From NCBI GenBank assembly GCA_029250605.1, contig JAQXEZ010000002.1, forward strand, positions 22,775-86,774: a stretch of DNA of 64,000 bases, in the 5' to 3' direction. Shown here piece after piece: positions 10,013 through 60,022 of the stretch. The translations under genes and the position numbers were made by a program. Positions within the stretch are counted from its first letter, which is position 1. Every line of letters begins with the position of its first letter. Origin of the DNA: Candidatus Thalassarchaeaceae archaeon (GTDB taxonomy: Archaea; Thermoplasmatota; Poseidoniia; Poseidoniales; Thalassarchaeaceae). The notes below the pieces were generated by a model. That model saw only the letters and a program-made list of their open reading frames with translations, ran no database searches and had not been told where the DNA came from.

Positions 10013-10068
10013 ATGAACCAATATGGGAAGATACTTCATGAACCTCATCGAGGGGCTCGTCTTCATCC

Positions 10069-20368: not shown

Positions 20369-23300
20369 ATGGTCAGAGGTCCAGGAAAGTTCTTCCCATT
20401 CGCCATCGCGATTTTGGTTTTCTTGCTTGATGTGCCCATAGGAGCAGCGCATGTCCCTGATGTAGAGAATTCTGATTCTACAGTTTTTTTTGAGGGTGAA
20501 ACTCCAGCCATTCCATCATTGATTTGCGGGGAAGAAGAATGCCAGAAAGAACTCAATCCGACCCATACTCCTCTCAATTCTAGTCCTCCAGCAATGGAAT
20601 TCGGATGGTGGAATAGTTTCTGGTCCGACTCCGACTCCAATGGTTTTGATGACCGACTCCAACTTATCGTGGCAGGAGAAAGGGAGTCTGTCTCAGTAAC
20701 TTCAATCGTTGGTGATGATGGCAGAGGAACTGTTGCTATCATTGTCCACTATGCATGGCATCCAGGAGTTCTGGACATCGACTCGTTAAAGGGAGTGATC
20801 GAGCAACACGGCTGGGAAAACGAAGGCTCCTGGTTCATGGTAATGGATCATCTAGATGCCATAGTCCTGGATCACGTCCCAGTGAGTTCTCTGATTGATA
20901 TTTGGAGTCTAGATGGAGTCGTCCTTGTCGAGGAGCAGAGCGTTATTGTGCCTTATCTGGACAAGGCGACGAGGGGTTCCAAGGTGAGGACCTCGGGGGT
21001 TTATGACGAGACTTTGAGGGGGCTTGGATACCATGGTTCTGGTAAAGTAATCGCTATTCTTGATACTGGAGTCGACAATGAGCACTTCTCACTTGACGAT
21101 TTCTCGGACGATAACAAGGACAACACAAAGGACCCCGATGACATAGAGGACCCCAAATGGGTCGGGGGATGCGATGCAACAGGAGTGGGGCAGTCAGGAT
21201 GCAACGATGAGGACCCCGATGATGGTGACGGTCATGGAACCCACGTGGCGGGAATTGCCCTCGGTACGGGAGACTCTAGTCGAGTCAATCAAGGATACTC
21301 TCCCGGCTCTTATCTAGTCGACGTGAAAGTCATGGAGGACTATGGTGGGGGGAACTCCCAGTCTATTCTGGCCGGCATCCAGTGGGCCATTAACAACAAA
21401 GACACTGATTGGGGCAATAATGCATCAAGCAGGGGCATCCACGTACTTTCTATGTCCTTCGGCAGAGCCAGCTCTGCTGTTGGAGACAACAACGAAGATG
21501 GGTCATCGGCGGAGGCGAATCTAGTTAATCAGGCCTCAGAGAATGGTTTAGTCTGTGTAGCTGCAATTGGAAACGATGGAGCGAACAATGTGAACTCCGT
21601 CGGTGCGGCGGATACCTCAATCACAGTTGGGTGGCTGGATGACAAGAATACCATCGATCGTAGTGATGACTCAATTAGCTCAAACTCCAACTATGGCCCG
21701 AGGACCGATGATGGAGACGGAGACTCGTGGGATGAAATGAAACCCTGGGTTGTGGCCCCTGGGTCGAATATCAACTCCGCACAGCATGCCGAATCATCCG
21801 GAATCATTCCTGGATCAGAAGTAAACAGAGCGAGTGACGACTACACTCAGTTATCGGGATCTAGCATGTCGACTCCAGCGGTGGCTGGGCTCGTGGCGAT
21901 TATGCTAGAAATTGGCGAAATGCGCAAGATGCCATTCATGGAGGAGGATGAGCCTGGAATAGAGAGGTATGAGGCGATCAGAAGTTTCCTCGCAGGTGGC
22001 TCAGAGTTCAGGAATGAATGGTCTGTGGATGAGACCTGGCAAGATAACAACTGGAACACGAGATATGGTTTCGGGATTATTGACGGGGGTGAAATCGCTA
22101 GTGAGATGTTCGATTACACAGGTGGCGGTGGCGGTGGAGGGAATCAGACCTCAGGCCCGGGATCAAACCAAGAGGGTCATTGGGTTGAGATTGAAAGTCC
22201 TTCAGCATACGCTTGGTTGGTAGAAGGAAGAGGATACAACCTAAGGGGGCACATCAACGAGCATGGCGAGGACAATGGGACTATCGAGGAAGTTGTCGTA
22301 AAGGTCGAGATGGAATTCAGGGAATCATCTGACACGCCCAAACAGAGATCAATTCTGGTAAACTGGTCGAATCCTACTGGAATAACCAATTGGACGGAAC
22401 CCTTCGAAGTTCCCGACCTCCCAGATGAATACACCGATGTCTCAGTCACTGGAATGGTTGCGGCGCGGAATGACATAGGAAGATGGAGCAATACGACTGA
22501 GTACTTCTTTCCAGTAGGCAGGGTAAACATCACACTAGAAGGCCCCAGTGGACAAGGTGACTTGGATGGAAACGTAGAGGTTAATGGCCAGTTTCAGTCA
22601 ATTGGAAATGCTACAATTCAATGGAGGCTGGACAGCGAAGAATGGCAGAATGGGCCCCATTACCACGACGGAGAGTGGACCATTGAGGACCAAGAGGGGA
22701 TGAGGCATGCAACTTCTCGGTACAAGGGCGATGGCAGCATCGATCCAGACTACCAGGGTCATGCATATTGTGTACACATGTTCAAAGCGGCTCAGAATTC
22801 TGGGAATAGCGTCGATTGCAAAGAGGATGACGATGGATGGACTCAATGGAGTTTCAACTGGGATACAACCCAGCACAAGGACGAAGAGTACAGGATTTCA
22901 GTGAGGGTGATTAGTGCTGTTGGAGTGACTTCTGAGCAAATCCGAAGAGTTGTCAGAGTTGACAACATTGACCCTATGCCAGACTTGGTTTTCGTTAGTA
23001 AATCGATTTCGGTTCAGGAATTTGGCATTCCGATGCAGGAATCATATGTTAATACATTCTTGGAAGTCAGGGCTACTATTAGGAATTCGGGGGATCAAGC
23101 CGCGACTGATGTGGGAATCATTCTAGAAGAATGGGGGGAGAGGCGAGACGAGTATGTGATTTCAAACATAGATACCGGCCAGTTCGTTGAAGTTGTACTG
23201 TACTGGAACCCTATGGACTCAGGCGATGCTCTGCTATCCATTTCAATCGACCCTCTGAATTCAATTCAGGAGTTAGACGACAATAACAACGAGCTTGTAG

Positions 23301-30863: not shown

Positions 30864-32198
30864 TCACTTCCCTAACCACCAATCGACCAATGATTCGATA
30901 TTCTCGGGGGATTGCCTCCCCTCAATCCCGCTACCTAATATCGACAATCGACTGATTGTTTCCATCAATGCACGTTCATGCCTTCCCGATTTGGCCATCT
31001 GCCCCAAGGAGAAGCGGATGTGCGTACCCGGATTGAGAGACTGCCATTTACTGATTTCCTTACGAAGGGGCCAAATTGCGAGAACAAGACGTCCAAATGG
31101 GAAGATCTCCTCTCTTAACTGCGATTTTGGTGCCTCTCGCCCGACTAGATTCTTCCTCCGGTAGACCCAACCCAATTCTTTGAGGAACCTGATTATCCTC
31201 TGCGTGTGCCTCTTAGAAACACATCGAACCGGTCCCATGGAAGATCTGAGTTCGGAAATCTCAGCCGAATTGATGAGTGAAAGGGTACCACATATAGAGG
31301 ACATTGAGTGATTTAGGATGTTTTTTGGATAATTATGGTGTTCTTTTTCCATTGAGGAAAGGGATTTTTTATGACTCTCCTGGGCTGATTTGAGAACTTT
31401 CCATGGTGCGTCTCCGTCCAACCATCCCAACTTTGTCTTCGGTGGTGTAATGCCAATATCTGGAAGTGTGCTTTGGTTTTGTGATTCCCTTACAATAGCC
31501 CTAATCTGTAATTGGTCAACTTGTTCCATTTCGACATTGATTGGAGTTGGTCTGCTGTTCATGAATGAGCGAATTGCCTCCCTCAGGGAGTTATGAAGTT
31601 GATTCTGAGTCCCTTCGTTTGAAATCGGGCCCAGTATTGCGCCCATGTCGAATGGAGTTGGCATTTCCATTTCTCCCGAGAGTAGTTGCCTGTATCCATC
31701 TCTGATCCGAATCTGCAATTCTGATGTCTCAAAGTACTCTTCCTTGCTGGAGAGGTCGCGGAGAGTTCCCTTTGAGATTCTCTCCAAGGCGATTTCTGGA
31801 TCGCAATCTACCCAGATACAAAGATCCGGTATTAATGCGGCCGAATTAATCTGAGCGGTCCTCTCTAGTCCGATTCCGCCAACAATTCCCTGATACACAA
31901 GAGAAGAGTGGACATTTCTGCCACTTACTACTGCCCTGCCTTCTTGAAGTCGTGGTAGAATCCACCCATGGGAGTGATCTAACCTATCTGCCGCGAAAAG
32001 TCCTGCCTCCTGCTCAGGAGATAGTGTCTGTCTCCTAACGGAATCTATTGCCAGCCTCCCTAATGCATGATCCCTCCTAGGTTCAGCTGTTACCTCAACA
32101 GATCTGAAGCAGAACTCGGATTGTAGAACCTCGTGCACAATCTGTGTGGCTAGGCCCTTACCACTGCCATCCCCGCCTTCAATTGAGAACAGATACAT
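30864..32198 (-). CDS. tmk: thymidylate kinase with about 230-aa C-terminal extension of unknown function
   Basis: N-terminal P-loop IEGGDGSGKG, DR(Y/L)-like motif AADRLDHS and a lid region make up about 210 aa of Tmk. The remaining ~230 aa match no motif. Confidence 0.7.
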   Translation of the reverse strand: MYLFSIEGGDGSGKGLATQIVHEVLQSEFCFRSVEVTAEPRRDHALGRLAIDSVRRQTLSPEQEAGLFAADRLDHSHGWILPRLQEGRAVVSGRNVHSSLVYQGIVGGIGLERTAQINSAALIPDLCIWVDCDPEIALERISKGTLRDLSSKEEYFETSELQIRIRDGYRQLLSGEMEMPTPFDMGAILGPISNEGTQNQLHNSLREAIRSFMNSRPTPINVEMEQVDQLQIRAIVRESQNQSTLPDIGITPPKTKLGWLDGDAPWKVLKSAQESHKKSLSSMEKEHHNYPKNILNHSMSSICGTLSLINSAEISELRSSMGPVRCVSKRHTQRIIRFLKELGWVYRRKNLVGREAPKSQLREEIFPFGRLVLAIWPLRKEISKWQSLNPGTHIRFSLGQMAKSGRHERALMETISRLSILGSGIEGRQSPENIESLVDWWLGK

Positions 32199-32963: not shown

Positions 32964-33914
32964 CTAACGATGGGAGTCCTTGAAGTTGGGCGTTTCCAGA
33001 TCTTTCTCCTTGGGGGTTATTCGGAATAAGAAAAATGCCGAAGCAATAGTTACTACAGATATCGCCATCAATGTGAACAAATGTGAGCTCCCATCAGCAC
33101 CCAATTTCTCTTCTGGGACTGTGAAATTGACCAAGTACATCTGCGTCCAGTTCTTCCCAGTAATCCAGAAACTACCAGAATTCCGATCAAATGCTATGCC
33201 GTTCAATACCTCTTCATTGCTATTTCCCTGAATGGAAGTGACGGCCAATGGGGATGAGAAAAAGTCCACCTTACCCGAAGCAGACGAGATTCTAAGGATT
33301 GTCTCCTCCATCCAAATGTTTGCATATATTTTGTCATCTACACATTCCAATTCATTTAGGTTTGAAACAGGAACGCCATCCCAAGTTACCTGTGTGGTGA
33401 AATCTATTTCAAAGCTATCTGGATCCCTGAATGAAAGCTCAGATGTCCCATTGGATGTAACAATGTGCTCCCCATTGTAGCATATCCCCCAACCCTCGCC
33501 TTCGAAACTGAAGTTTCCAATTATACTAAAATTTGAGATGTGAAATTCCAATGCCACTCCTGCCCTCCAAGTCAGCATAATGATTGACTGGCCCTTTACG
33601 GTAATCCCTTCTCCGAAGTAAGAGTCGTCAATCTTAGTCTGTCTGATAATCTCCCCATTTTGTGAGTCAATCTCGCTAATTCTCGAATGGCCATAAAGGC
33701 CCGAACTCTCGAAAATTGAGTTTTCCAGTACTTCCAGCCCTTGTGTGAACGAAGATGAGTCGTGAGGCAGTGTTCGCAATATCTCAACATCCCTCTCTTC
33801 GGCCGTATGATTGCCCTCCTCGGCCATTGACATCTGTGAAAGGAGTATGAGGAGCATTGCGATGGGAACGATTGATGGCCCCGTCCCCCTGCCCATGTAC
33901 GAACGATGCTCCAT
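32964..33914 (-). CDS. glutaminyl-peptide cyclotransferase (plant/bacterial beta-propeller type), extracytoplasmic, membrane anchored
   Basis: Signal peptide; QC family motifs HDSSSFTQGL, ESSGLYGHS, FGEGIT, LTW; C-terminal TM helix. Confidence 0.6.
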   Translation of the reverse strand: MEHRSYMGRGTGPSIVPIAMLLILLSQMSMAEEGNHTAEERDVEILRTLPHDSSSFTQGLEVLENSIFESSGLYGHSRISEIDSQNGEIIRQTKIDDSYFGEGITVKGQSIIMLTWRAGVALEFHISNFSIIGNFSFEGEGWGICYNGEHIVTSNGTSELSFRDPDSFEIDFTTQVTWDGVPVSNLNELECVDDKIYANIWMEETILRISSASGKVDFFSSPLAVTSIQGNSNEEVLNGIAFDRNSGSFWITGKNWTQMYLVNFTVPEEKLGADGSSHLFTLMAISVVTIASAFFLFRITPKEKDLETPNFKDSHR

Positions 33915-33969
33915 CGATGTTAAAATACGTCCTCGAGCAGTTTGGAGCAGATTGGTAAACGAGGTGCTA

Positions 33970-36900
33970 ATGATGGGTGGTGGTTCGGAAATCTACTCTA
34001 CTAGGAAAGCTGTGCTGACAGTAGTTTCGATACTAGTTGTTTTCATTGCTCCTATTTTTTCCTCTGAAGGGCTAGCAAGCACTGGAGGGCAGCCAAGAAA
34101 CTGCCTGAATACGTGGTCGGTGGACGATACGGACAACATGACGACCAATGACGGGACCTTTGCAGTAACTGTGGAGAAAATCTCCACCAACGCAGCGATT
34201 TTCGTTGAAGACGGTCAAATCGTTTCATCTACTGTTCTGAATGACATTGTGTCAAACTGGGAATCCATAATTTTCCCTTCCACTACCAACTACTTCGGGA
34301 CCCCTCCGGATATTGATGACAATTGTCAGATAGAAATTGCCATTCTGTCAATAGATGGGCCTGGTGGGGAAGAGGGTTATTTTGAATCTGGAGTTTCATC
34401 GTTGCGAGAGGCATTATTCCTAGATATCGATGATCTGTCAGAAAGAAATCGGGTGATGGCGCACGAGTTTGGGCAATTGATTCATCACGAGAATGACCCT
34501 TTCGAATATTTCTGGATTGATGAGGGCGCAGCGGGGCTTTCTGAGTTTATTAGCTACGGAGAGTCAGTGAATCTAGAAGAGGGGGCAAACTCATGGACGC
34601 TGAACTCGAGTACAAGTTTGAGATGGTGGGACGGAAGAAATTCTGATATCGGTTCAAGTTTCTTATTCTTGGCATATTTGGCAGACAAATTAGGCGGGCC
34701 TGCTGCCATCAGAGAGTTGGTGTCTAATCCTTCCCTAGGTGGGAATGGGGTTGAGAGCCTATCCAGGAACCCTGGTCCGGGATCGACTCCAATAGGGACT
34801 TCAATGAGTGAGATCTTTGCAAACTTCAGCGCAGCAGTTACTCTGGATAGCGCGCAGGGTGCGTTTGGTTTCTCCGACCTTGACTTAGTCGATGATTGCT
34901 CAAACGGTGGCTTCTGCAAGGGATCCATCAGTGCAGAGAACGATCAGTGGTCAGAGGCGTGGCAATCGTCAGGACACTCAGTGGAGGGATGGGGGCTCAA
35001 ATCATTCAGATTCACACAAGGTGATGGTTACCCCTTGAGCATCATGGTTCAACCGGACAGATTCGGTTTCGAAGGAGTCGTTCTTTCGAAAGAGGAGGCT
35101 TCTGGGACTTGGACTATGGACAAACTGAGGATTGATTCGAGCGACGGCAGGGGAACGGGACTAGTTCACGGATTTGGAAATACCACCTCCGAGGTTCTAC
35201 TCCTAGTCTGGTACAACTCCCTTGTTGATGACTGTGATTTCGACTTTGCAAATTGTGGCGTACTTTCTGGAGGAAATTACCCCGTCGGGTCATTTACCGT
35301 AAGTGCCAGTCAGGTCACGAGCCCTGCTGAGGTGTCGATAGGGTCGATAGAAGGTTTTGATCGAGACGGGGACTTCCTCGATGATAGCGTGGAAATTGGC
35401 ATCAGCGTCAGTTCTAGTGCATTTTCAGAGTCTCTGTCTGTAGAATTCTCGGCCTTCACCAATAATTCACTACATGATTCTGCGGATTTCATGGTCTCAG
35501 TAGGAAACTCTGAACCGGAAATGATCTCAGTTTGGTTTACCCCCCCATTTACCAGTGATTGGACTTTTACAACTAAGGTCAGAGACATTACTGGGGAACT
35601 GCAGGACATAGCTCAGTCACTCCCTCAGCAGATTTTCAACATGAAACCAGTTGGGTCGGGGGCAATCTCATCAAATGAAACGCAGACATGGACTCAGACG
35701 TACATCTTTGGGGGCGGTTACGACTCTTGGGGATTCGGGTTCCAAAACGGTTCTTTCGGGCACAATGAAACTCCGCAATCGTACATCTGGGATCTGGGTG
35801 ATGGGAATTCTTCGAGTTTGAAGAATCCTGTTCATTCGTTCACGAAGGAAGGGGCATACGTGATCACTCTCCTAGTCAGGGATCATGGGGGTTTCTTTTC
35901 TGAAACAATTTCATGGGAAATCTCGGTAAATGATACCTCTGAGCCGATTCCTGAGATTTCTGTAGATGGTTTGGCTATCCAAGAGGAGTTGACGGTTCAG
36001 ACGAATCAGAGAATACAATTTTCGGCCTTCGGGACGTCTGACAATGTTCCCGTGGACAAATTATTTTTCTCATGGAACTGGGGTGATGGATCTGGTGACT
36101 CTGGTACAGGAATCTTCGAAATTGGCCATTCGTGGACAGATGGCAGTAGCAATGGCACCGTATACTCATTGGAGTTGTTAGTCAGTGATGGTCACCAATC
36201 TGCACAGAAGTCCATTCTAGTCACGGTTCTAAACCGGGCGCCTTACCAGATTTTCTCGGAGGATCTGGAGGGTTTTGCGGTTACTCCACTGGAGATGCCG
36301 GATGTTTTCGAGGACGAAGATGGGATAATTGTCGAATTCAGATGGACTTTCGAAGGAGGCGTCAACTTAGGGGGGGTGGGTGTCTCACTTGCATCTGATT
36401 TCACCGAAACAAATTCATTCGAAGCTAATCCTATCGTCAGTTGGAAGGAACCAGGGGTGAAAAACGTAACACTAGAGGTGGCTGATGATGATGGAAATAC
36501 CTCCATCACTTACTTGGAAGTAGAAATCCTGAATCAACGACCAGTTGCACTTTTCGAGCGCCCTTCTGACGGAGAAATCGGTGATGCTTACATTTTCAGT
36601 AGCTCATCATTCGACCCTGACGGGGATTCGTCTGCATTATCCCACTACTGGAATTTCTCAGACCGGGACTCACCCATTGAGAATACCACTTCCGTGAGTA
36701 GGACTTTTTCAAACCCGGGACTTCACAGTGTTTCACTAGTAGTCGTCGACGAGAGAGGCTTAGAGTCTGCTCCGAAGACTTTCCTACTGTATATCGGAAA
36801 CCCATTACCTGTCCCAATAATGTCATTCATCTGCCCTAGTGATGAAGATGGATTATTGTTTGAACTTCCTGATGATGTGGAAGAGGGGGTTACTTGGAAG

Positions 36901-37923
36901 GTTCCAAGGACAGCGGAAGGAGGGGCCTTTGTTGCCCCTGGGAATCTCATCAGATTCGATGGCAGCGAGAGTTTCGACGCTGACCCGGAATTCGAAGGAA
37001 TGACATCCACGGACGCCAACAGCCCGGATTGGAATGGGATTGTGGATTGGATATGGGACTTCGGAGACGCTAGTCCCCCTTCCTCAGGACCTCAAGTTTG
37101 GCATAGCTATGAGAGATCGGGGGAATATACAGTCAGACTTACTGTAGTTGACGGTTTTGGAGGCGGGGACTCCAACACCACAGAGATGAAAGTGATAGTC
37201 TCTTCAGCCCCTCGAATCGAGACTTCAAAACCCATCAGCACCGAGTACGTTGTCGTTGGAGAATTGGTCAATCTGTCCGGGGACGCCTCCGACTCCGACT
37301 TGGAGGCTGGAATAATTGCATGGATGGACAATGATGCGTTTTTTGATAGCGATGGTGATGGCGACCCTAGCAACGATAGAGACCTGAATCTCTCTGAGAC
37401 TCTAGAGTTTGACTGGGACATCAATGTATTTGTGGATGAAGACTGCATGACTCTATCGGGGTGTGATGGCGATTCGAGGAACGACTGGATAATACCAAAT
37501 CAAACCTGGGCCATTCCCGGTGAAGTACGAATTTCAATGATGGTCTGCGATGGCTTGAGTGTCTGTGAATCTAAAGACTTCGTGATTACAGTGCTCTCCG
37601 TCCAGGATACTGCACCGCCGAAGACTCTGTCCGACTTGACCATGGAAGATCTTGTTCCAGGTAGAGAAAGCGCAGGCTTACTTGCTCTTGTTGCACTAGT
37701 TGCAGTACTAGGATGGATGGTACTCAGAGAAAGGGATGATGATGAGATGGATGCCTTGGACAATGTCAAGAAATACGATGTCGATGAGGTCGAGGCGGAA
37801 GGAGGCCTACCTGGGATGGATCAACACAGTCCCCCTCCACAACCAAAATACCTTACTGCCGACGAGCGCACCAACAAAGAGTCAGGGTACGTGCGACCGA
37901 TTAGAACGAGGCGAAAGAAGTGA
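33970..37923 (+). CDS. giant secreted surface protein with multiple PKD-like Ig domains and C-terminal TM anchor
   Basis: Signal peptide after Met at 33970. At least four PKD-type repeats (WDLGDGNSS...HSFTKEGAYVITLLVRDHGG; WNWGDGSGDSG; WDFGDASPPS...HSYERSGEYTVRLTVVDGFGG). C-terminal TM (LLALVALVAVLGWMVL) and a charged tail. Confidence 0.7.
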   Translation: MMGGGSEIYSTRKAVLTVVSILVVFIAPIFSSEGLASTGGQPRNCLNTWSVDDTDNMTTNDGTFAVTVEKISTNAAIFVEDGQIVSSTVLNDIVSNWESIIFPSTTNYFGTPPDIDDNCQIEIAILSIDGPGGEEGYFESGVSSLREALFLDIDDLSERNRVMAHEFGQLIHHENDPFEYFWIDEGAAGLSEFISYGESVNLEEGANSWTLNSSTSLRWWDGRNSDIGSSFLFLAYLADKLGGPAAIRELVSNPSLGGNGVESLSRNPGPGSTPIGTSMSEIFANFSAAVTLDSAQGAFGFSDLDLVDDCSNGGFCKGSISAENDQWSEAWQSSGHSVEGWGLKSFRFTQGDGYPLSIMVQPDRFGFEGVVLSKEEASGTWTMDKLRIDSSDGRGTGLVHGFGNTTSEVLLLVWYNSLVDDCDFDFANCGVLSGGNYPVGSFTVSASQVTSPAEVSIGSIEGFDRDGDFLDDSVEIGISVSSSAFSESLSVEFSAFTNNSLHDSADFMVSVGNSEPEMISVWFTPPFTSDWTFTTKVRDITGELQDIAQSLPQQIFNMKPVGSGAISSNETQTWTQTYIFGGGYDSWGFGFQNGSFGHNETPQSYIWDLGDGNSSSLKNPVHSFTKEGAYVITLLVRDHGGFFSETISWEISVNDTSEPIPEISVDGLAIQEELTVQTNQRIQFSAFGTSDNVPVDKLFFSWNWGDGSGDSGTGIFEIGHSWTDGSSNGTVYSLELLVSDGHQSAQKSILVTVLNRAPYQIFSEDLEGFAVTPLEMPDVFEDEDGIIVEFRWTFEGGVNLGGVGVSLASDFTETNSFEANPIVSWKEPGVKNVTLEVADDDGNTSITYLEVEILNQRPVALFERPSDGEIGDAYIFSSSSFDPDGDSSALSHYWNFSDRDSPIENTTSVSRTFSNPGLHSVSLVVVDERGLESAPKTFLLYIGNPLPVPIMSFICPSDEDGLLFELPDDVEEGVTWKVPRTAEGGAFVAPGNLIRFDGSESFDADPEFEGMTSTDANSPDWNGIVDWIWDFGDASPPSSGPQVWHSYERSGEYTVRLTVVDGFGGGDSNTTEMKVIVSSAPRIETSKPISTEYVVVGELVNLSGDASDSDLEAGIIAWMDNDAFFDSDGDGDPSNDRDLNLSETLEFDWDINVFVDEDCMTLSGCDGDSRNDWIIPNQTWAIPGEVRISMMVCDGLSVCESKDFVITVLSVQDTAPPKTLSDLTMEDLVPGRESAGLLALVALVAVLGWMVLRERDDDEMDALDNVKKYDVDEVEAEGGLPGMDQHSPPPQPKYLTADERTNKESGYVRPIRTRRKK

Positions 37924-39747: not shown

Positions 39748-44455
<4,708 letters not shown>

Positions 44456-52856: not shown

Positions 52857-52958
52857 GGCACGGCCTCAAGTAGCGCTGGTACGCTCAGGCCTATCAAAAC
52901 ACCGAATCAAATAGAGGTATGTGGCAATCATAGGGTTGCTGATGGGTCTGAACCAAAT

Positions 52959-54170
52959 ATGTCTAAGAACGTCGAAATGTGCAATGAATCAATGGCGGAC
53001 TACCTAGACAGGATTGGGGCGGGCAAGGTTCTGATTTCTAGGGAGCCTTTGTCCTATGACTGGACCCCTTCTGAGTTGGTGGGAAGAAAGGACGAACTTG
53101 GTGAATTAGCATCGATGTTCTTTGGAATAGAGAATCACAATGTCAGTTGCAGGGCCGTAATAACGGGGAACGTTGGATCTGGGAAGACTGTCCTAACTCG
53201 TCGTTTCTGCATGGACGTCGCAGCAAAACTAGAGGGGCGAAGGAAAGTCTCGATCGCCCATGTGAATTGCAGGAGCCATCCCTCGGCATCCCAGGTTCTT
53301 CAGCAAATAGCATCGTCTCTTGACTCAGGTCATCCTGAGCGTGGTTTCAGCTCTGGAGAGGTAATACAGAGCATTAGGCGCAACATCCGCTCGCGCGAAA
53401 GTCATCTACTTCTGATTCTGGACGAGGTTGACGTGCTAGTTAGGAGAGATAACTCAGACCTGATCTACAAGCTCCTGAGGATAGACGAGGACAAGGAGGG
53501 AGAGGGGACACTATCGCTAATCATGGTGAGCCAGGAAGATTCGCTCTTCACCCTTTTCGAGGCTGCCATCAAATCTCGACTGGGGGAAAGCAACATCCTC
53601 CGAATGAGACCCTATGTGGCAAGTGAACTAGTGGAAATAGCGAGGCAACGGTACGAGGCATCTTGCAGGCCGAACTCAGTTAGTGACGAGGTTCTCCGCA
53701 AGATTGGCATTTTTGCAGAAGAGTCGGGCGGAGATGCTAGGATGGCCATTGAGCTCCTTGACCGCGCAATTGGGGAGGCGGAAAAGGACGGGAGAGAGAA
53801 GGTGACAGTGGACGATGTCCTTCCAAGCAAGTCTCGCTCTGCCTCCGTGGAGCCGAATCAGGTTGATGGTCTGAAACTGCACCAGAAATTGGTCCTTCTC
53901 GGAATCTGCAGGAGACTGAAGAGGGAGGAAGAGGTATCCAGCGGAGATGCTAGCAAGTTGTATGAGCTGGTCTGCGAGGAGAACAACGAGACACCAAAGG
54001 GGTACACCACATTCTGGAAATATCTGAAGCACCTTGAATCGGAGGGATTGATCGTCAGCAGGGCCTCAAGTTCGAATCGAGGGAGGGGGAGGACACGCTA
54101 CATCACGATGCCGAACTCGGTTCCCGCGGTAATCGGAAGCAGGATAGAAAACGAGCTTCTGAGGAGATAG
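52959..54170 (+). CDS. orc1: Orc1/Cdc6 replication initiator
   Basis: AAA+ Walker A GNVGSGKT, Walker B LILDEVD, sensor-2 GGDARMAIELLD, and a C-terminal winged helix. Confidence 0.85.
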   Translation: MSKNVEMCNESMADYLDRIGAGKVLISREPLSYDWTPSELVGRKDELGELASMFFGIENHNVSCRAVITGNVGSGKTVLTRRFCMDVAAKLEGRRKVSIAHVNCRSHPSASQVLQQIASSLDSGHPERGFSSGEVIQSIRRNIRSRESHLLLILDEVDVLVRRDNSDLIYKLLRIDEDKEGEGTLSLIMVSQEDSLFTLFEAAIKSRLGESNILRMRPYVASELVEIARQRYEASCRPNSVSDEVLRKIGIFAEESGGDARMAIELLDRAIGEAEKDGREKVTVDDVLPSKSRSASVEPNQVDGLKLHQKLVLLGICRRLKREEEVSSGDASKLYELVCEENNETPKGYTTFWKYLKHLESEGLIVSRASSSNRGRGRTRYITMPNSVPAVIGSRIENELLRR

Positions 54171-55982: not shown

Positions 55983-56349
55983 TCTCATGGTTTCAGTTCT
56001 GGTTGATGCATGTGGATGGGTTTCCCTTATCGATGCAGGCCTGAACCTGGACATTTCCCTCAATGAGGTGGTAGGGAAGGCTGAGCTGAAGATCACTGCT
56101 GGGGTAAGGGATGAGCTTGACTCCCTCTCAAAGACTCGCGGTGGCCTCCTTCTGGACCTACTGTACAGCAGATCGGAATTGATCGATTCGGAGGGAGGTC
56201 ACACGGATGACTCCCTTTTGGCCCTAGCAACCCAGAACCAGTGGCCAGTTCTAACTGTGGACAGAGTGCTGAAGAAGAGGCTTGTAGAAGGGGGCTGTTC
56301 GTACATAGAAGTGACATCTGGGCCATCCCTGAGAATGGTTGAGGCCTAG
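55957..56349 (+). CDS. PIN-domain protein (conserved aIF2gamma neighbour)
   Basis: Acidic residues placed as in a PIN fold (VLVDACGWVSL...D...TVD). This is the position of the PIN gene in the archaeal aIF2gamma neighbourhood. Confidence 0.5.
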   Translation: MDMGQSRADLMVSVLVDACGWVSLIDAGLNLDISLNEVVGKAELKITAGVRDELDSLSKTRGGLLLDLLYSRSELIDSEGGHTDDSLLALATQNQWPVLTVDRVLKKRLVEGGCSYIEVTSGPSLRMVEA

Positions 56350-56639
56350 GGAAGCGTGAACAGACGATTGTCCCCATGACCGTCCATCAGACCTATCCTT
56401 ACTGCAGCATCCAGCCATGCATGGGCGTAGTTGATTGCTCCGAAGGAGCTTACTAAGTCCCCCTGAGAGGCGAAATGCCGTGCATCGGCAGTATAATCAT
56501 CGCACATCCGAAGCATCTCGTTCAGCCTATCTTCATCCAGCTTGCTCGAGGTAGAAGGTGTCGCCTTTGACCTAGCCTCGGCAGTGAGAGCGAGGTATCT
56601 CTCGATTCTCTCGTGAGTGATTTTATCGGACATCATCAT
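56346..56639 (-). CDS. DUF357-like small archaeal protein
   Basis: INYAHAWLDAAVRIG matches the YAHGWLDA core of DUF357. Confidence 0.4.
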   Translation of the reverse strand: MMMSDKITHERIERYLALTAEARSKATPSTSSKLDEDRLNEMLRMCDDYTADARHFASQGDLVSSFGAINYAHAWLDAAVRIGLMDGHGDNRLFTLP

Positions 56640-58456
56640 CCCCCACTTAGCAAGGATCCAGCACCTTCGCTTAGCTTGAACAGCCTACTTCTCCCTTCCT
56701 TCCGCACGGCCAGTATGCCTGATTTGTGGAGTGAGTTGTAAATCTGAGAAAGGCGAGGCCGTCCCACCTCGAGCCGTGCTTGGATCTCGGCATCGGAAGG
56801 GGATATCTCCCGCGATGAGGCCACGGAGACAACCAGTCTCTCGGCGTCGCTCATACTTCCAAGGTGATTCTGGTCGACGATATCCTTAGATTCCCATGAA
56901 GGCCCTCTGACGATAATTGGGGTTTCAGAGTTGATTATCTGGGTCTGTTCCTCGATAGTATCCATTATTTCGGGTTCTTCGAGGGGTTCGTCGGGCTCGA
57001 ATTCGGGTTCGGATTCGGGCTCGCTAGATAGCTCAGGCAGAGTCTCCTCCAAATCCGAGTCAACTGTCCATAATTCTCCCTCGGAGTGTAATACCTTCTT
57101 CTCCTCGAAAGAGGGTTTTTCCGTGCTTATTGACTTCCTATTTTCCTCGGGAATTGGTTGTTGTCTTTCTACGATGGGTGCTTCCTTCGGAGTGGTCTTG
57201 AGTTCACCAATATCCGGCTCCTGGATGGGGACTGTGAAATCGGGTCCCTTTGGCATGGAGTCATTCGTTATTTTCGACCTGTTTACTAGGCCCGAGAAAC
57301 CCCTATTGCGGCCATTGCTGGGTGGTTCTGTACCCTCGTCCATTGACAGAATTGTCCCTTCGTCGGCTGTCCATCCGGTGATTTTCTCTGGATTCTCCGA
57401 GGTGATTTCACTATCTGGTGAGATTTCGCTGTATTCTTCCTCATTGATTTCATCGAAAACAGATTCTTTCTCTGTGCCCTCATCATTTGGCCACATGTCA
57501 TCTGGTTCTACGTCCCAGTCCTCATCTTCTGCCTCGTTCTCAATGATATCTGGATCCTCTTCCTCAGGCCAATCTTCCACAATTTCTTCGAGGGCAGCAT
57601 CCTGGGGCTCATGGATTGGTGCCGTAACGGTTTCTAACTGGTGTTTTCCTAGGTTATAATCGGGCGTAGTATCCTTCTTTTCGGGGCTCCAACTAGTCAG
57701 AGATTCCAGAGTTCCTTTGGAGCCAAGGCCCCTTCCCTCATCTACAAGATCTCTGAGGATACTGATCACAGATCTTGGATTTCCACCTGTCCTGGACATA
57801 ATTGCCCCCAGTAAATCGCTATTGATGTGCCACCTCTCGAGGGACATCCTGCGAATCCTAAGGTCGCTGAGCGATTGGATTTGCTCGCGAGAAAGGGGCG
57901 CAACTGTGACTATCTCATCGAAAACCTCTCTGGTATTCTCGTCCAGAGATGCCATCTGGGAGTTAGAAACCGAAACTACTACGAGGGCTCTAAGTCGCTG
58001 CAGTATTGGCAATATTAGAGACAAGAATGAGGCTGAGTCGACGTGTGGGGGATAGTCCAGAGCGACGAGGGGCAGTGGTCCCGAGAGCGTGTCCATGGTC
58101 TCCACAATCCTCTCAATTTTCTGATGCATGCTCGGTGGTATTTCATGGCCGCAGAATGTTATGGCAAGCTCGTCCAGAGCGCAGTTAAGAGGGTCATCGC
58201 TATGCCAATATGTTCCAACGAAACGATCGTCAGTAAGCGATGAGATTGCGTTGATCAGAGATGTCCTACCCGAACCCCTCTCACCGGTAAGAAGTATCAT
58301 CCTAGGAGACTGGGAGTGCATATGTTCCTTCCACCTAATCATGGTGTCATCTCTTCCGACTATCTCACTGGCCCGGTTCCTCTCGATTGGTCTAGAGTCG
58401 AATGGGTTTCCTCGCAGAGTAGGGAGGTCTGAGGGAGAAAGGTCGCTCAACACCAT
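56636..58456 (-). CDS. divergent Orc1/Cdc6-like AAA+ ATPase with ~250-aa acidic low-complexity insertion and C-terminal winged HTH
   Basis: Walker A GERGSGRTSL, Walker B LVALDYP, sensor-2-like GGNPRSVISILRDLVDE. A D/E/P/S-rich disordered segment follows. The C-terminal wHTH is LVVSVASSREISPSDAEIQARLEVGRPRLSQIYNSLHKSGILAV. Confidence 0.55.
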   Translation of the reverse strand: MVLSDLSPSDLPTLRGNPFDSRPIERNRASEIVGRDDTMIRWKEHMHSQSPRMILLTGERGSGRTSLINAISSLTDDRFVGTYWHSDDPLNCALDELAITFCGHEIPPSMHQKIERIVETMDTLSGPLPLVALDYPPHVDSASFLSLILPILQRLRALVVVSVSNSQMASLDENTREVFDEIVTVAPLSREQIQSLSDLRIRRMSLERWHINSDLLGAIMSRTGGNPRSVISILRDLVDEGRGLGSKGTLESLTSWSPEKKDTTPDYNLGKHQLETVTAPIHEPQDAALEEIVEDWPEEEDPDIIENEAEDEDWDVEPDDMWPNDEGTEKESVFDEINEEEYSEISPDSEITSENPEKITGWTADEGTILSMDEGTEPPSNGRNRGFSGLVNRSKITNDSMPKGPDFTVPIQEPDIGELKTTPKEAPIVERQQPIPEENRKSISTEKPSFEEKKVLHSEGELWTVDSDLEETLPELSSEPESEPEFEPDEPLEEPEIMDTIEEQTQIINSETPIIVRGPSWESKDIVDQNHLGSMSDAERLVVSVASSREISPSDAEIQARLEVGRPRLSQIYNSLHKSGILAVRKEGRSRLFKLSEGAGSLLSGG

Positions 58457-58489
58457 AGGCCCTCAGCACCCTATGGGATTCTTAATGTT

Positions 58490-58670
58490 CACGCATACTC
58501 ACGCATTGCAGAGTGCCAATTAACGGGTAATTCGCAAATGCGGGGAGTTGGGATTGTGAATAATTGGTTCAGTATCTATTTTTCCTCTTTACTGCATTAA
58601 CGCATTATTAACGGGTTAGTAAAGCGTTAACAAAGCGTTAACGGGCAAATTAACGCATTATTCGAGAGGT
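58490..58670. promoter_or_regulatory. cluster of six TTAACG(G/C) motifs (3 copies of TTAACGGG, 2 of TTAACGCATTATT, tandem GCGTTAAC) around an AT-rich 38-bp stretch; candidate origin or operator array
   Basis: Direct reading of the 267-bp divergent intergenic region between the Orc1-like gene and HMG-CoA reductase. Confidence 0.45.
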
Positions 58671-58723
58671 GTTTTGCTCGAAAAAGGTTAGAAGCCCGTT
58701 GTCATGTCTTCGGTCTGAGTACA

Positions 58724-60022
58724 ATGCCAATAGAGAATAGTCGCATCGGAGGGTTCTACAAACTATCAGTTTCAGAGAGAAGGGAGCTTCTCGCTGAGAT
58801 TGCGGAATTGAGCGATGAACAGGTAGAGGCATGGGCCAACTCGGGAGAGTTGGATGAAGAGTCGGCGGACAGGATGATAGAGAATGTCGTGGGAACATAC
58901 TCACTCCCCATAGGGGTGGCGACCAACTTCGTGATTGATGGTTCCCACTATGCGATCCCATTCGTTCTCGAAGAGCCTAGCGTGGTTGCGGCGGCGAGCA
59001 ACATGGCGAAGAGGTGTCTAGCCAACGGTGGCTTCAGTTCGGACAATGACGACCCAGTCATGATCGGCCAGATCCAAGTCGTGGGTTGTGAAGACCCAGA
59101 TGGTGCAAGGGAGTCTATTCTGGCAGCCAAGGACGAGTTGGTTTCGAACTGCAACGAGGTAGACCCCATACTGGTGAAGTTCGGAGGCGGTTGCAGGGAC
59201 CTCTCTGCCAGAGTAATTGAGACTGGCTCGGGGAGGATGGTGATCGTGCACATCCACGTGGATTGCAGGGACGCGATGGGTGCCAATGCGGTGAACACGA
59301 TGGCTGAAACCATTGCTCCAAGGGTGGAGGAGATCTCTGGTGGGACGGTCATCCTGAGGATAATCAGCAACTTGGCCGTTCTACGACTCGCTAGGGTTAG
59401 TGCGGTTTTCACCCCAGAAGAGATGTCAGACAGGGGACAGGATGCAAAACAAGGCTCTGAGGTGATTGACGGGGTCATTCAGGCATACCACTTCGCTGAG
59501 GCGGACCCATTCAGGGCCACGACCCACAATAAGGGGATAATGAACGCGATATCCGCTGTAGCTCTTGCCTGTGGCCAGGACTGGAGGGCCATCGAGTCTG
59601 GGGCTCACAGTTATGCCTCTCACGAGAGGACGTACGGTTCGCTGACCAAGTGGTCAAAGGACGATGACGGCAATCTGGTGGGGTCCATCGAGCTTCCTAT
59701 GGCAGTGGGCCTGGTTGGCGGTGCAGTAAGGGTCCATCCCGCCGCACAGGCGAATGTGGCCCTTCTGGGCGTTGAGAGCGCGGACGAGCTGGCGAAGGTG
59801 ATGGCGGCATCGGGACTGGCTCAGAACCTCGGTGCACTGCGTGCCCTAGCCACTGTGGGGATCCAAGCAGGCCACATGAAGTTGCATGTCAGGAACATGG
59901 CAGTTACCGCTGGGGCCGAGGGGGGAGAGGTAGACAAGGTGGCATCCATGCTCAGGGAAAGGGGTGGCAGGATCACCCAAGCCTCGGTGATTGAGGCACT
60001 GGAAGAGATCCGTTCTGATTAG
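58724..60022 (+). CDS. hmgA: 3-hydroxy-3-methylglutaryl-CoA reductase (probably class II type)
   Basis: ENVVGTYSLPIGVATNFVIDG, DAMGANAVN, and C-terminal GSIELPMAVGLVGG...HP.A motifs. About 430 aa and soluble. Confidence 0.85.
   Translation: MPIENSRIGGFYKLSVSERRELLAEIAELSDEQVEAWANSGELDEESADRMIENVVGTYSLPIGVATNFVIDGSHYAIPFVLEEPSVVAAASNMAKRCLANGGFSSDNDDPVMIGQIQVVGCEDPDGARESILAAKDELVSNCNEVDPILVKFGGGCRDLSARVIETGSGRMVIVHIHVDCRDAMGANAVNTMAETIAPRVEEISGGTVILRIISNLAVLRLARVSAVFTPEEMSDRGQDAKQGSEVIDGVIQAYHFAEADPFRATTHNKGIMNAISAVALACGQDWRAIESGAHSYASHERTYGSLTKWSKDDDGNLVGSIELPMAVGLVGGAVRVHPAAQANVALLGVESADELAKVMAASGLAQNLGALRALATVGIQAGHMKLHVRNMAVTAGAEGGEVDKVASMLRERGGRITQASVIEALEEIRSD

What the first reader, a model, noticed from the sequence alone, without database searches (positions are those of the whole stretch)
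58490..58670. Dense array of TTAACG(G/C) motifs plus an AT-rich tract next to the Orc1-like gene: candidate origin or operator region
The 267-bp divergent intergenic region between the Orc1-like gene and HMG-CoA reductase holds six copies of TTAACG. TTAACGGG occurs three times (58519, 58608, 58638). TTAACGCATTATT occurs twice as a direct repeat (58598, 58650). Around 58624 there is a tandem GCGTTAAC-aaa-GCGTTAAC with a palindromic GTTAAC core, and ACGCAT occurs twice near 58490. These motifs flank a 38-bp AT-rich stretch, gaataattggttcagtatctatttttcctctttactgc, a possible unwinding element. The motif differs from classical archaeal ORB boxes. The arrangement of repeats flanking an AT-rich segment, adjacent to an initiator paralogue, is still origin-like. 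It could instead be an operator array for a local regulator of hmgA or the Orc1-like gene.
Basis: seen in the sequence. Interest (0 to 1): 0.65.

Follow-up and report, generated by a model that had tools for sequence, protein, structure and literature searches.

The report
Conserved 11-bp iteron array, Orc-like regulator
The TTAACG cluster is a real protein-binding array of 11-bp repeats, kept across the whole order of Marine Group II archaea next to a previously undescribed Orc1/Cdc6-related DNA-binding protein; it most likely acts as that protein's operator for itself and HMG-CoA reductase, not as a replication origin.

Summary
Seven of the window's 11 TTAACG copies lie in 136 bp of the 267-bp hmgA/gene-X intergenic region; simulated sequences give at most 3.

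The window comes from a Marine Group II (Poseidoniales) archaeon. In 95 distinct orthologous intergenic regions (gene-X protein identity 100% down to about 27%) the array is always present. It consists of 2-3 direct RTTAACGCWTT units at an 11-bp period, facing 2-3 inverted units. The cores are invariant and the linkers vary. The distance to the start of gene X is fixed within clades.

Further sites abut the inferred X promoter and, in this clade, lie inside the hmgA promoter.

Gene X is not a true Orc1, which lies 4.3 kb away. It is a separate, narrow family:
- a degenerate Orc1/Cdc6-like AAA+ domain
- a roughly 270-residue acidic linker
- a near-invariant winged helix

The origin reading is not supported:
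- the motif does not resemble ORB
- the "AT-rich tract" is 63% AT on average and is not conserved
- strand skew at four-fold degenerate sites keeps the same sign on both sides of the array

Best reading (0.55): a cooperative operator array for X. Origin and centromere-like readings remain minority possibilities.

The parts
56636..58456 (-). Gene X (606 aa). It has an N-terminal degenerate AAA+ domain (Walker A GERGSGRTS, Walker B LVALDY, sensor-2-like GGNPR), a roughly 270-residue acidic disordered linker with short conserved motifs, and a C-terminal ArsR-like winged helix. It is the candidate binder of the array.
   Evidence: Domain evidence. Family alignments. AF2 model of residues 1-270: pLDDT 89. 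Foldseek. hhalign against Orc1.
58478..58486 (-). Inferred TATA-like element of gene X (ATTAAGAAT on the - strand, -30 to -22 from the ATG). This implies a leaderless or near-leaderless mRNA.
   Evidence: The element is invariant in the alignments, with equivalent AT-rich boxes at the same distance in distant clades. The promoter function is inferred, not shown.
58488..58506 (+). Two direct repeats, TTCACGCAT and CTCACGCAT, at 10-nt spacing. They are variant sites that abut the BRE/TATA of gene X.
   Evidence: the repeat finder family D2. Conserved, down to about 36% X identity.
58518..58528 (+). Isolated proximal site AATTAACGGGT, 62-72 nt from the X start codon.
   Evidence: Invariant position (TTAAC at nucleotide 64) in nearly all MGIIb-type sequences.
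58529..58594 (.). Spacer of fixed length. It is 77 nt from the proximal site to the first iteron (start to start). Its sequence is poorly conserved except for short ATGCGGG and CAGTA patches.
   Evidence: Fixed spacing. AT content averages 0.63 (range 0.52-0.69), the same as the array, and falls to 0.46-0.56 in other lineages.
58596..58662 (.). Main iteron array. It reads TTAACGC (58597, +), TTAACGG (58608, +), a degenerate centre (58614-58624), GCGTTAA (58624, -), GCGTTAA (58635, -), with an overlapping TTAACGG (58638, +), and TTAACGC (58650, +). The period is 11 nt. Positions 58597-58641 form an imperfect 45-bp palindrome.
   Evidence: (I1). Conserved in 95 unique orthologous regions. Unit logo RTTAACGCWTT and the spacing histogram.
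58677..58694 (+). Inferred BRE/TATA of hmgA (CTCGAAAAAGGTTAGAAG).
   Evidence: Invariant block. The TTAGAAG core recurs upstream of hmgA in distant lineages. The function is inferred.
58694..58701 (-). Inverted half-site GCCCGTTG (CAACGGGC on the - strand, sharing AACGGGC with TTAACGGGC at 58638). It lies between the hmgA TATA-like box and the start codon, which is a repressor-type position.
   Evidence: Inverted repeat I8. Invariant in the 8 lineages, but altered in L010, L011 and L013 and absent in lineages with longer intergenic regions.
58724..60022 (+). hmgA, a class II HMG-CoA reductase. It is transcribed divergently from gene X in every lineage examined.
   Evidence: PF00368 359 bits; TIGR00532 441 bits. 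Synteny.

Best explanation
The region is a cis-acting protein-assembly site, not an RNA and not a chance cluster.

**Anatomy.** Two converging sets of 11-bp iterons (consensus RTTAACGCWTT) sit 140-200 nt upstream of gene X. Weaker related sites sit at -62 to -72 and at -32 to -50, next to the inferred X promoter. In this clade one inverted half-site lies inside the hmgA core promoter.

**Proposed mechanism.** The product of gene X binds the TTAACGC cores through its invariant C-terminal winged helix. It oligomerises through its Orc1/Cdc6-like AAA+ domain along one face of the DNA. The phasing is 11 nt, and the 77-nt spacer is a multiple of it. The complex bridges or wraps the spacer to reach the proximal sites. 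In this way X controls its own promoter and, in MGIIb lineages, the divergent hmgA promoter.

**Shown:**
- the array, its phasing, its order-wide conservation and its anchoring to gene X
- the architecture of X and its invariant winged helix

**Inferred:**
- that X is the binder
- the promoter positions
- the regulatory outcome
For: - **Clustering beyond chance.**
- **Phylogenetic footprint.** TTAACGC cores are invariant while the 3-4-nt linkers vary, across X identities from 97% to 58% and down to about 27% in 95 unique sequences.
- **Helical phasing.** Same-strand spacing is 11 nt in 108 cases; the other common values (22, 42, 53, 77) are helical multiples.
- **Anchoring to gene X.** The intergenic length ranges from 201 to 427 nt, but the distance from the array to the X start is constant within clades. 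The extra DNA lies on the hmgA side.
- **Conserved DNA-binding domain.** The winged helix of X (SPSD..LQ..L.VGRPRLSQI.N.L.K.GIL.VRK.GRSR) is nearly invariant even at 22% overall identity. This matches an invariant DNA motif.
- **Oligomerising fold.** The N-terminal domain of X is an AAA+ base plus lid. Its closest structures are Orc1/Cdc6, ORC, MuB, TnsC and RFC, which assemble as oligomers, most of them on DNA.
- **Locus specificity.**
  - 97 of 120 metagenome hits to the array pattern are this locus.
  - The other 23 are unrelated sequences without X or hmgA.
  - No paired site occurs in 968 kb of flanking MGII DNA.
  - Single TTAACGC sites are about 730-fold denser inside the region than outside.
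- **Not an RNA.** No Rfam hit and no covariation.
- **Precedent.** Sulfolobus Orc1-2 is an Orc1/Cdc6-family protein that acts as a transcription regulator (PMC6061795, PMC9738581).
Against: - No binding data exist. X is implicated only by adjacency, co-conservation and its domains.
- hmgA and X are never separated in the sample, so the target gene cannot be resolved by synteny.
- The main array lies unusually far (140-200 nt) from the X promoter for a simple autoregulatory operator.
- In lineages with longer intergenic regions the array is 130-230 nt from hmgA, and the hmgA-proximal half-site is missing.
- Converging phased arrays next to an initiator-like AAA+ gene also resemble origin architecture.
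- The metagenome sample was selected with the array pattern. It therefore overstates conservation of the pattern itself. The eleven loci fetched by protein are unbiased, and all carry the array.
Confidence: 0.55

Rival explanations
1. The region is a replication origin. The iterons would be lineage-specific origin-recognition boxes bound by X (a diverged Orc1/Cdc6-like initiator) or by the nearby Orc1, and the spacer would be the unwinding element.
For: - Repeats in both orientations flank a spacer next to an AAA+ plus winged-helix gene that is remotely homologous to Orc1.
- The true orc1 is 4.3 kb away in a cluster conserved order-wide, and it has no room for an origin beside it: gaps are 102 nt here and 27-133 nt elsewhere.
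- This is the largest noncoding gap in the 64-kb window (267 nt; the next is a 265-nt apparent gap at 10013-10277).
- Archaeal origins are usually paired with a cognate initiator gene (PMC3936714). Two converging 11-bp-phased arrays resemble the DnaA-box arrays of E. coli oriC (PMC6127211, citing Rozgaja 2011).
Against: - G/C skew at four-fold degenerate sites shows the + strand is G-rich whatever the gene direction (p = 3e-4).
- The skew has the same sign in all five bins of the window, including to the right of the array (R = +0.05 to +0.20).
- The sign is also the same on both sides in six MGIIb lineages.
- 64.5% of coding bases to the left of the array are on the + strand. They would be head-on to a fork leaving this site.
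- The spacer averages 63% AT, the same as the array. It falls to 46-56% in other lineages and shrinks to about 30 nt in the far clade.
- There is no ORB or mini-ORB similarity.
- The whole region is only 201-267 nt in many lineages and also has to hold two promoters.
Confidence: 0.13
2. The region is the operator array of a different transcription factor encoded elsewhere, for example a regulator of isoprenoid or lipid synthesis acting on hmgA. X would be only a neighbour.
For: - The motif lies between two divergent promoters, and in this clade one half-site sits inside the hmgA core promoter.
- hmgA is the classic control point of the mevalonate pathway (general knowledge).
- Nothing directly ties X to the DNA.
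Against: - The array keeps a fixed distance to gene X, not to hmgA, when the intergenic length changes.
- The hmgA-proximal half-site is clade-specific.
- No second locus with the array was found.
- The invariant winged helix of X parallels the invariant motif.
Confidence: 0.15
3. The region is a chromosome-organising or centromere-like site. X would polymerise on the iterons, as ParR does on the 11-bp parC iterons, or would act as a loading site for SMC-ScpAB. Autoregulation would be a side effect.
For: - 11-bp iterons lie in two blocks next to the gene of their presumed binder.
- The array occurs at one locus, and no second copy was seen in any contig recovered.
- SMC-ScpA-ScpB lies directly beyond hmgA in the MGIIa-type loci.
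- X has a nucleotide-binding oligomerisation domain whose Walker B lacks the catalytic glutamate, which suggests a switch rather than a motor.
Against: - No partner motor (ParA, SegA or ParM type) is encoded beside X.
- SMC is not adjacent in the window's clade.
- All the evidence is circumstantial.
Confidence: 0.1
4. The region is a structured RNA or DNA hairpin element, such as a 5' leader or small RNA, formed by the palindrome.
For: The 45-nt imperfect palindrome folds at -12.8 kcal/mol as DNA, z = -2.7.
Against: - No Rfam family matches.
- RNAalifold gives a covariation term of only -1.1 kcal/mol, and all array pairs are invariant.
- Substitutions fall in the linkers between cores, not in a pattern that preserves pairing.
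- In several lineages the central part reads as additional direct TTAACG units rather than a stem.
Confidence: 0.03

Closest known systems
Archaeal Orc1/Cdc6 proteins acting as transcription regulators (Sulfolobus/Saccharolobus Orc1-2; PMC6061795, PMC9738581)
   Same: Both have an AAA+ domain plus a C-terminal winged helix and recognise a short DNA motif in promoters. Both are non-initiator relatives of Orc1 that coexist with a true Orc1.
   Different: - X fails the Orc1/Cdc6 family models.
- X has Walker A GxGRTS, a Walker B without the catalytic Glu, and a roughly 270-residue acidic linker between the lid and the winged helix.
- The Orc1-2 motif is a dispersed hexamer in many promoters. Here a phased multi-copy array was found at only one locus.
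Archaeal oriC with ORB/mini-ORB repeats and a DUE next to orc1/cdc6
   Same: Both have repeats in both orientations around a spacer, next to a gene for an initiator-like AAA+ protein. Both are conserved noncoding islands in compact genomes.
   Different: - The motif is unrelated to ORB.
- The units are 11 bp rather than 20-36 bp.
- There is no conserved AT-rich DUE.
- There is no skew switch.
- The region is very short and is shared with two promoters.
DnaA-box arrays of E. coli oriC and of DnaA-regulated promoters (PMC6127211; Rozgaja et al. 2011, cited there; spacing details from my own knowledge)
   Same: Both have two oppositely oriented arrays of short sites at an 11-bp period. In E. coli these guide head-to-tail oligomerisation of an AAA+ protein with a C-terminal DNA-binding domain, and DnaA also autoregulates its own promoter.
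   Different: The domain of life differs and the motif is unrelated. X is not DnaA. No unwinding element or origin signal is present here.
STAND/AAA_16-type transcription activators (MalT, LAL family) (my own knowledge)
   Same: Both have an N-terminal AAA_16-like NTPase and a C-terminal HTH. Both would bind cooperatively, depending on oligomerisation, to several repeated boxes upstream of promoters. X gives weak AAA_16 and nSTAND1 hits, and the top Foldseek hit is a STAND NLR.
   Different: MalT and LAL proteins have sensor or TPR arms and a LuxR-type HTH, and they are bacterial. X has an acidic disordered linker and an ArsR-like winged helix.
ParR-parC partition sites of plasmid R1 (my own knowledge)
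   Same: Both have blocks of 11-bp iterons beside the promoter of the binder's own operon. In R1 the iterons are bound cooperatively into a higher-order complex that also autoregulates.
   Different: ParR is a small RHH protein with a ParM partner. The R1 iterons are direct repeats. No motor gene lies beside X.

Membership tests
Archaeal replication origin (oriC) | ORB or mini-ORB type origin-recognition boxes | tested here: not met
   The repeat is RTTAACGCWTT. A mini-ORB-like consensus gives only scattered matches with 1-2 mismatches, none in the region.
Archaeal replication origin (oriC) | AT-rich duplex unwinding element between or beside the repeats | tested here: not met
   Spacer AT averages 0.63, equal to the array. 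It is 0.46-0.56 in other lineages, about 30 nt long in the far clade, and its sequence is not conserved.
Archaeal replication origin (oriC) | Switch of strand compositional asymmetry at the site | tested here: not met
   The strand component R of G/C skew at four-fold sites is +0.05 to +0.12 to the left and +0.20 to the right of the array. The sign is the same on both sides in six MGIIb lineages. Only 5-8 kb is available on the right.
Archaeal replication origin (oriC) | Adjacent cognate initiator gene | tested here: inconclusive
   X is a remote AAA+ relative of Orc1 (hhalign probability 72%, E 3.4e-5; Foldseek 2qby/2v1u about 1e-7) but is not a family member. The true orc1 is 4.3 kb away.
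Archaeal replication origin (oriC) | Initiation activity: marker-frequency peak, ARS activity, initiator binding | not testable with these tools
   This needs coverage profiles of growing populations or biochemistry.
Operator array of a divergently transcribed local regulator | Short repeated motif conserved as a footprint, with variable linkers, between divergent promoters | tested here: met
Operator array of a divergently transcribed local regulator | Adjacent gene encodes a DNA-binding protein co-conserved with the sites | tested here: met
   An ArsR-like winged helix is present and is nearly invariant across the family. X and the array co-occur in all 104 loci that carry both flanking genes.
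Operator array of a divergently transcribed local regulator | Sites overlap or abut the core promoter elements | tested here: inconclusive
   The ACGCAT repeats abut the inferred X TATA box, and GCCCGTTG follows the inferred hmgA TATA box. The promoters are inferred from sequence only, and the main array is distal.
Operator array of a divergently transcribed local regulator | Specific binding of the regulator and an effect on transcription | not testable with these tools
   EMSA, footprinting or a reporter assay is needed.
Orc1/Cdc6 protein family (for gene X) | Passes the curated family models (TIGR02928, PRK00411; Cdc6_lid, WHD_Cdc6) | tested here: not met
   The only Pfam hit is AAA_16 at 25.5 bits, below the 32.6 cutoff. 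There is no Orc1 NCBIfam hit, whereas the true Orc1 scores 230 bits.
Orc1/Cdc6 protein family (for gene X) | AAA+ base plus lid followed by a C-terminal winged helix | tested here: met
   AF2 model with pLDDT 89. Foldseek hits to Orc1-1/Orc1-3, ORC1 and Cdc6. The winged helix is at residues 530-600, but about 270 disordered residues are inserted before it.
Orc1/Cdc6 protein family (for gene X) | Canonical Walker A lysine and Walker B DE | tested here: not met
   Walker A is GSGRTS in this clade, with Lys only in some distant members. Walker B is hhhhD-Y/F, with no Glu anywhere in the family.
Known RNA family or structured RNA | Rfam match, or covariation supporting a fold | tested here: not met
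Anti-phage defence STAND/AAA systems | Match to PADLOC models | tested here: not met
   No hit for X, DUF357 or the PIN gene. The gene order is conserved across the order rather than island-like.

The most novel reading that the evidence does not exclude
X and its iterons form a lineage-specific, DnaA-like assembly system in archaea. An Orc1/Cdc6-derived AAA+ protein would build two head-to-head filaments on converging 11-bp iterons. The site would serve as a replication origin with its cognate initiator, or as an origin-proximal centromere or chromosome-organising site, for the Marine Group II chromosome, rather than as a plain transcriptional operator.
Probability: 0.15. Interest if true: 0.85.

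Novelty: new variant of a known kind. Interest (0 to 1): 0.55.

Why it matters
Marine Group II archaea are among the most abundant planktonic archaea and have no cultured representative, so nothing is known experimentally about their gene regulation or replication control.

This locus gives a sharply defined and testable pair. One part is an invariant 7-bp core arranged as phased 11-bp iterons. The other is a lineage-wide protein of a new family: an Orc1/Cdc6-like AAA+ domain, an acidic disordered linker and a winged helix.

The pair sits next to the gene for the committed step of isoprenoid lipid synthesis and 4 kb from orc1.

If X is the binder, this is a second, independent case of an initiator-type AAA+ protein recruited to transcription control. 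It would also be a possible link between membrane-lipid synthesis and the replication gene cluster.

If instead the site is an origin or a centromere, it would be a new type for archaea. Either way, the motif is a ready marker for recognising this locus in MGII metagenome assemblies.

Tried and rejected
- **Structured RNA.** No Rfam hit, no covariation, and only a modest hairpin. Rejected.
- **Classical ORB search in the window.** Matches are scattered and there is no cluster. The region upstream of the true orc1 holds no repeats.
- **Full-length AF2 model of X with a shallow alignment.** pLDDT was 42, so the model was unusable. It was replaced by an N-terminal model built on a deeper alignment.
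- **Sequence searches of X against the PDB.** Only weak, generic AAA+ and ArsR hits.
- **Second locus or regulon.**
  - The metagenome scan with a 21-base array pattern returned only this locus plus unrelated sequences.
  - That pattern cannot detect simpler single or double sites elsewhere.
- **Raw GC skew.** It tracks gene direction and is uninformative, so it was replaced by four-fold-site skew split by gene strand.
- **Defence-system reading.** No PADLOC hit.
- **Mobile-element reading.** Rejected, because the synteny is fixed across the whole order.
- **Literature.** No paper was found on the motif, on MGII origins or on archaeal hmgA regulators.
Full report
**Observation.** The finding lies in the 267-bp gap (58457-58723) between a 606-codon gene on the minus strand (56636-58456, here called X) and hmgA on the plus strand (58724-60022).
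- TTAACG occurs 11 times in the 64-kb window on both strands, which is what dinucleotide-preserving shuffles predict (11.4). Seven of those copies fall within 58520-58655.
- All three TTAACGGG copies are here, as are 7 of the 9 exact TTAACGS copies. The pair TTAACG-N5-TTAACG, with up to two mismatches, occurs nowhere else in the window.
- In 300 first-order Markov simulations the densest 140-bp cluster held at most 3 copies, against 7 observed.
Its "six copies" is really five on the plus strand and two on the minus strand.
- The "AT-rich" 38-mer (58558-58595) is 68% AT.

**Anatomy.** The repeat finder shows that the motifs form an imperfect 45-bp palindrome (58597-58641). It consists of two direct units on the left and two inverted units on the right, all at an 11-nt period (TRF period 11).
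- An overlapping TTAACGG lies at 58638 and a further unit at 58650.
- Related sites lie towards gene X: AATTAACGGGT at 58518-58528, and TTCACGCAT and CTCACGCAT at 58488-58506.
- An inverted half-site, GCCCGTTG, sits at 58694-58701.
- Comparison of the sequences upstream of the window's genes suggests AT-rich TATA-like boxes about 25 nt before the start codons.
- By that criterion ATTAAGAAT (58478-58486, minus strand) would be the X promoter and GGTTAGAAG (58686-58694) the hmgA promoter. These are inferences from sequence only.
- On that reading the ACGCAT repeats abut the X BRE/TATA, and GCCCGTTG lies between the hmgA TATA box and the start codon.

**Organism and conservation.** The window comes from a Marine Group II (Poseidoniales) archaeon. 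X matches MAGs of that order at 91-97% identity.
- X homologues form a graded series.
- Eleven loci fetched by protein identity alone span 80% down to about 30% X identity. All show hmgA transcribed divergently from X, followed by DUF357, a PIN gene, eIF2-gamma, S6e and the true orc1.
- Alignments of the intergenic regions show classic footprints. The TTAACG(C) cores, the ACGCAT repeats and the two promoter blocks are invariant, while the 3-4-nt linkers between cores and the spacer vary.
- TTAAC starts at 64, 141, 152, (160), 171, 182 and 194 nt from the X side in nearly all MGIIb-type lineages.
- A lineage at about 34% X identity still has ATTAACGCTTTGTTAACAGTTAGTTAACGCGTTAATTAAAGCGTTAAT in its 206-bp gap.
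  - 97 hits are this same locus.
  - 23 are unrelated sequences lacking X and hmgA: a low-GC palindrome family, a TTAACGCGTTA-rich repeat family, and singletons.
- Together the loci give 95 distinct intergenic sequences, 201-427 nt long. The distance from the array to the X start is constant within clades, and the extra DNA lies on the hmgA side.
- From 414 exact sites the unit is RTTAACGCWTT. Same-strand spacings are 11 nt (108 cases) or near-multiples of the helical repeat: 22, 42, 53 and 77.
- In 968 kb of DNA flanking these loci there is not one paired site. Single TTAACGC sites are about 730 times rarer there than inside the gap.
- The pattern-selected sample overstates retention of the pattern itself. 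The protein-selected loci do not have that bias, and all carry the array.

**Gene X.** X is not a bona fide Orc1.
- Its only Pfam hit is AAA_16, below threshold. The true Orc1/Cdc6 at 52959-54170 scores 230 bits on TIGR02928.
- X has three parts: an N-terminal P-loop domain, a roughly 270-residue acidic linker of low complexity, and a C-terminal ArsR/BigR-like winged helix.
- The family is narrow. It has about 100 clusters at 50% identity among 1.84 billion proteins, nearly all 500-700 residues long.
- The most distant hits are shorter AAA_16/ATPase_2 plus MarR-type winged-helix proteins.
- Family alignments show the following.
  - Walker A is GxxGxG(R/K)TS.
  - Walker B is hhhhD-(Y/F), with no catalytic glutamate.
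  - A sensor-2-like GGNxR is present.
  - The linker carries conserved short motifs (GTEPP, GFxGL..R, ELW).
  - The winged helix is almost invariant even at 22% overall identity.
- A first full-length model was useless (pLDDT 42). A model of residues 1-270 on a deeper alignment reached pLDDT 89 and pTM 0.84.
- Its best PDB neighbours, all near E = 1e-7, are a STAND NLR, Sulfolobus Orc1-1/Orc1-3, Aeropyrum ORC1, eukaryotic ORC/Cdc6 subunits, MuB, TnsC, RFC and RuvB.
- The two helices between strands 2 and 3 resemble an initiator-specific motif. This is my reading and was not checked by superposition.
- A profile-profile comparison with the MGII Orc1 proteins aligns 213 columns, with Walker A, Walker B and sensor 2 in register (probability 72%, E 3.4e-5).
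- X is therefore a remote, degenerate relative of the initiator/clamp-loader AAA+ group with an Orc1-like domain order.
- It has no PADLOC match.

**Origin test.** Raw GC skew follows gene direction, so I separated the two effects using G/C at four-fold degenerate third positions.
- Left of the array, plus-strand genes have a skew of +0.014 and minus-strand genes -0.162, both measured on their coding strands (gene-wise Mann-Whitney p = 3e-4).
- The plus strand is therefore G-rich whatever the direction of transcription, as expected for one replichore.
- The strand component R is +0.078, +0.084, +0.046 and +0.118 in four bins left of the array, and +0.195 to its right.
- In six MGIIb lineages with 3.6-8 kb on the hmgA side, R is positive on both sides. 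Two distant lineages (three loci, two of them near-identical) show R near zero on both sides and are uninformative.
- 64.5% of coding bases left of the array are on the plus strand, so they would be head-on to a fork leaving this site.
- The spacer averages 63% AT, the same as the array itself. It falls to 46-56% in other lineages and is only about 30 nt long in the far clade.
- An ORB-like consensus finds no cluster.
- In favour of an origin:
  - the true orc1 has only 27-133-nt gaps beside it;
  - the X-hmgA gap is the largest noncoding stretch in the window (267 nt, marginally longer than a 265-nt apparent gap at 10013-10277);
  - two converging 11-bp-phased arrays next to an AAA+ plus DNA-binding-domain gene recall the DnaA-box arrays of E. 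coli oriC (PMC6127211, citing Rozgaja 2011) and the origin-initiator pairing of haloarchaea (PMC3936714).
- I weigh the absence of a polarity switch and of a conserved DUE as outweighing these resemblances. Only 5-8 kb is available on the right, and the replication origin of the skew is itself an inference.

**RNA alternative.** There is no Rfam match. RNAalifold finds only invariant pairs and a covariation term of -1.1 kcal/mol. The DNA hairpin is modest (-12.8 kcal/mol, z = -2.7). In several lineages the centre of the palindrome reads as extra direct units.

**Interpretation.** The region is a protein-assembly site under strong purifying selection across an entire archaeal order.
- The most economical model is that X binds the TTAACGC cores through its invariant winged helix and oligomerises through its AAA+ domain along one face of the helix.
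- The fixed-length spacer of variable sequence suggests that the distal array and the promoter-proximal sites are held in a defined three-dimensional complex.
- X would then control its own promoter and, in this clade, hmgA.
- The degenerate Walker B suggests a nucleotide-dependent switch rather than a motor.
- Sulfolobus Orc1-2 is a precedent for an Orc1-type protein working as a transcription factor (PMC6061795, PMC9738581).
- I put this model at 0.55. The rivals are another factor's operator (0.15), an origin (0.13), a centromere-like or SMC-related organising site (0.10) and an RNA or DNA hairpin element (0.03).
- I found no paper on this motif, on MGII origins or on archaeal hmgA regulators.

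**Verdict.** "Orc1-like" holds only at the level of a remote AAA+ relationship and shared domain order. The element and its presumed binder appear to be undescribed. They are best classed as a new variant of a known kind: an initiator-type AAA+ DNA-binding protein with a phased iteron operator.

Noticed in passing
window 52959-54170 (+) and 52857-52958: The true Orc1/Cdc6 gene (TIGR02928, 230 bits) has only a 102-nt upstream gap with no repeats. In related loci the gaps beside orc1 are 27-133 nt. The cluster orc1-S6e-eIF2gamma-PIN-DUF357-X-hmgA is conserved across Poseidoniales, so the origin of these genomes is not in the usual place beside orc1.
   Followed up: partly
window 1-64000: G/C skew at four-fold degenerate sites shows the + strand is G-rich whatever the gene direction (R = +0.05 to +0.20 in all five bins). 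The whole window therefore seems to lie in one replichore with the + strand leading.
   Followed up: yes
window-wide, and 968 kb of related loci: TTAACG(C) is under-represented outside the array. In the window there are 4 copies against about 11 expected. In flanking MGII DNA the density of TTAACGC is 0.02 per kb, against about 0.12 per kb for a random 7-mer on both strands. This could reflect avoidance of spurious sites, CpG or GTTAAC (HpaI-type) avoidance, or composition.
   Followed up: no
window 56346-56639 (-): The DUF357 gene overlaps the stop codon of X by 4 nt and follows X in most lineages, which suggests an X-DUF357 operon. In the far clade (L014-L016) a 342-residue ORF is inserted between them.
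   Followed up: no
gene X residues about 260-525 (window 56880-57680): The long acidic linker of X carries short motifs conserved across the family: DWDVEPDDMW, GTEPP, GFSGL.xRS, and EGELWTVDS..E.TLPE. They look like docking motifs for a partner protein.
   Followed up: no
window 58537-58544 and 58571-58575: Within the otherwise variable spacer, ATGCGGG(G) and CAGTA are conserved in most MGIIb-type lineages. Their role is unknown; they could be a further degenerate site or a start site.
   Followed up: no
L012 1-4236; L014-L016 2815-8495: In MGIIa-type loci the SMC, ScpA-like and ScpB genes lie directly beyond hmgA. In the window's clade an Atg22-like MFS transporter, a GDPD-family gene and citrate synthase occupy that side.
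   Followed up: no
L036, L047, L062, L111, L131, L134 (metagenome contigs, GC 30-38%): An unrelated low-GC organism carries a perfect 37-bp palindrome, TTAACGCCTTGTTAAC-N5-GTTAACAAGGCGTTAA, just upstream of a gene. It is probably the operator of some other dimeric regulator.
   Followed up: no
L017, L040, L058, L082, L066, L052, L065: Short contigs share a repeat-rich element of the form TTAACGCGTTATTAACGCGTTAA, followed by AATTAAT/CGCGATTAA-type repeats. It looks like a dispersed repeat or the subterminal region of a mobile element, from unknown, non-MGII organisms.
   Followed up: no
window 39757-44455, 30864-32198, 20369-25339, 33811-37923: Other genes identified in the window are gyrB-gyrA (bacterial-type gyrase), a 444-residue thymidylate-kinase fusion, a 1656-residue S8 subtilase with a CARDB domain, and a 1370-residue PKD-repeat protein.
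   Followed up: partly
L050/L012 (427-nt gap), L026 (374 nt), L106 (367 nt): Some lineages carry 100-160 nt of extra, unannotated DNA between the array and hmgA. I did not check whether it holds a small ORF or an RNA.
   Followed up: no
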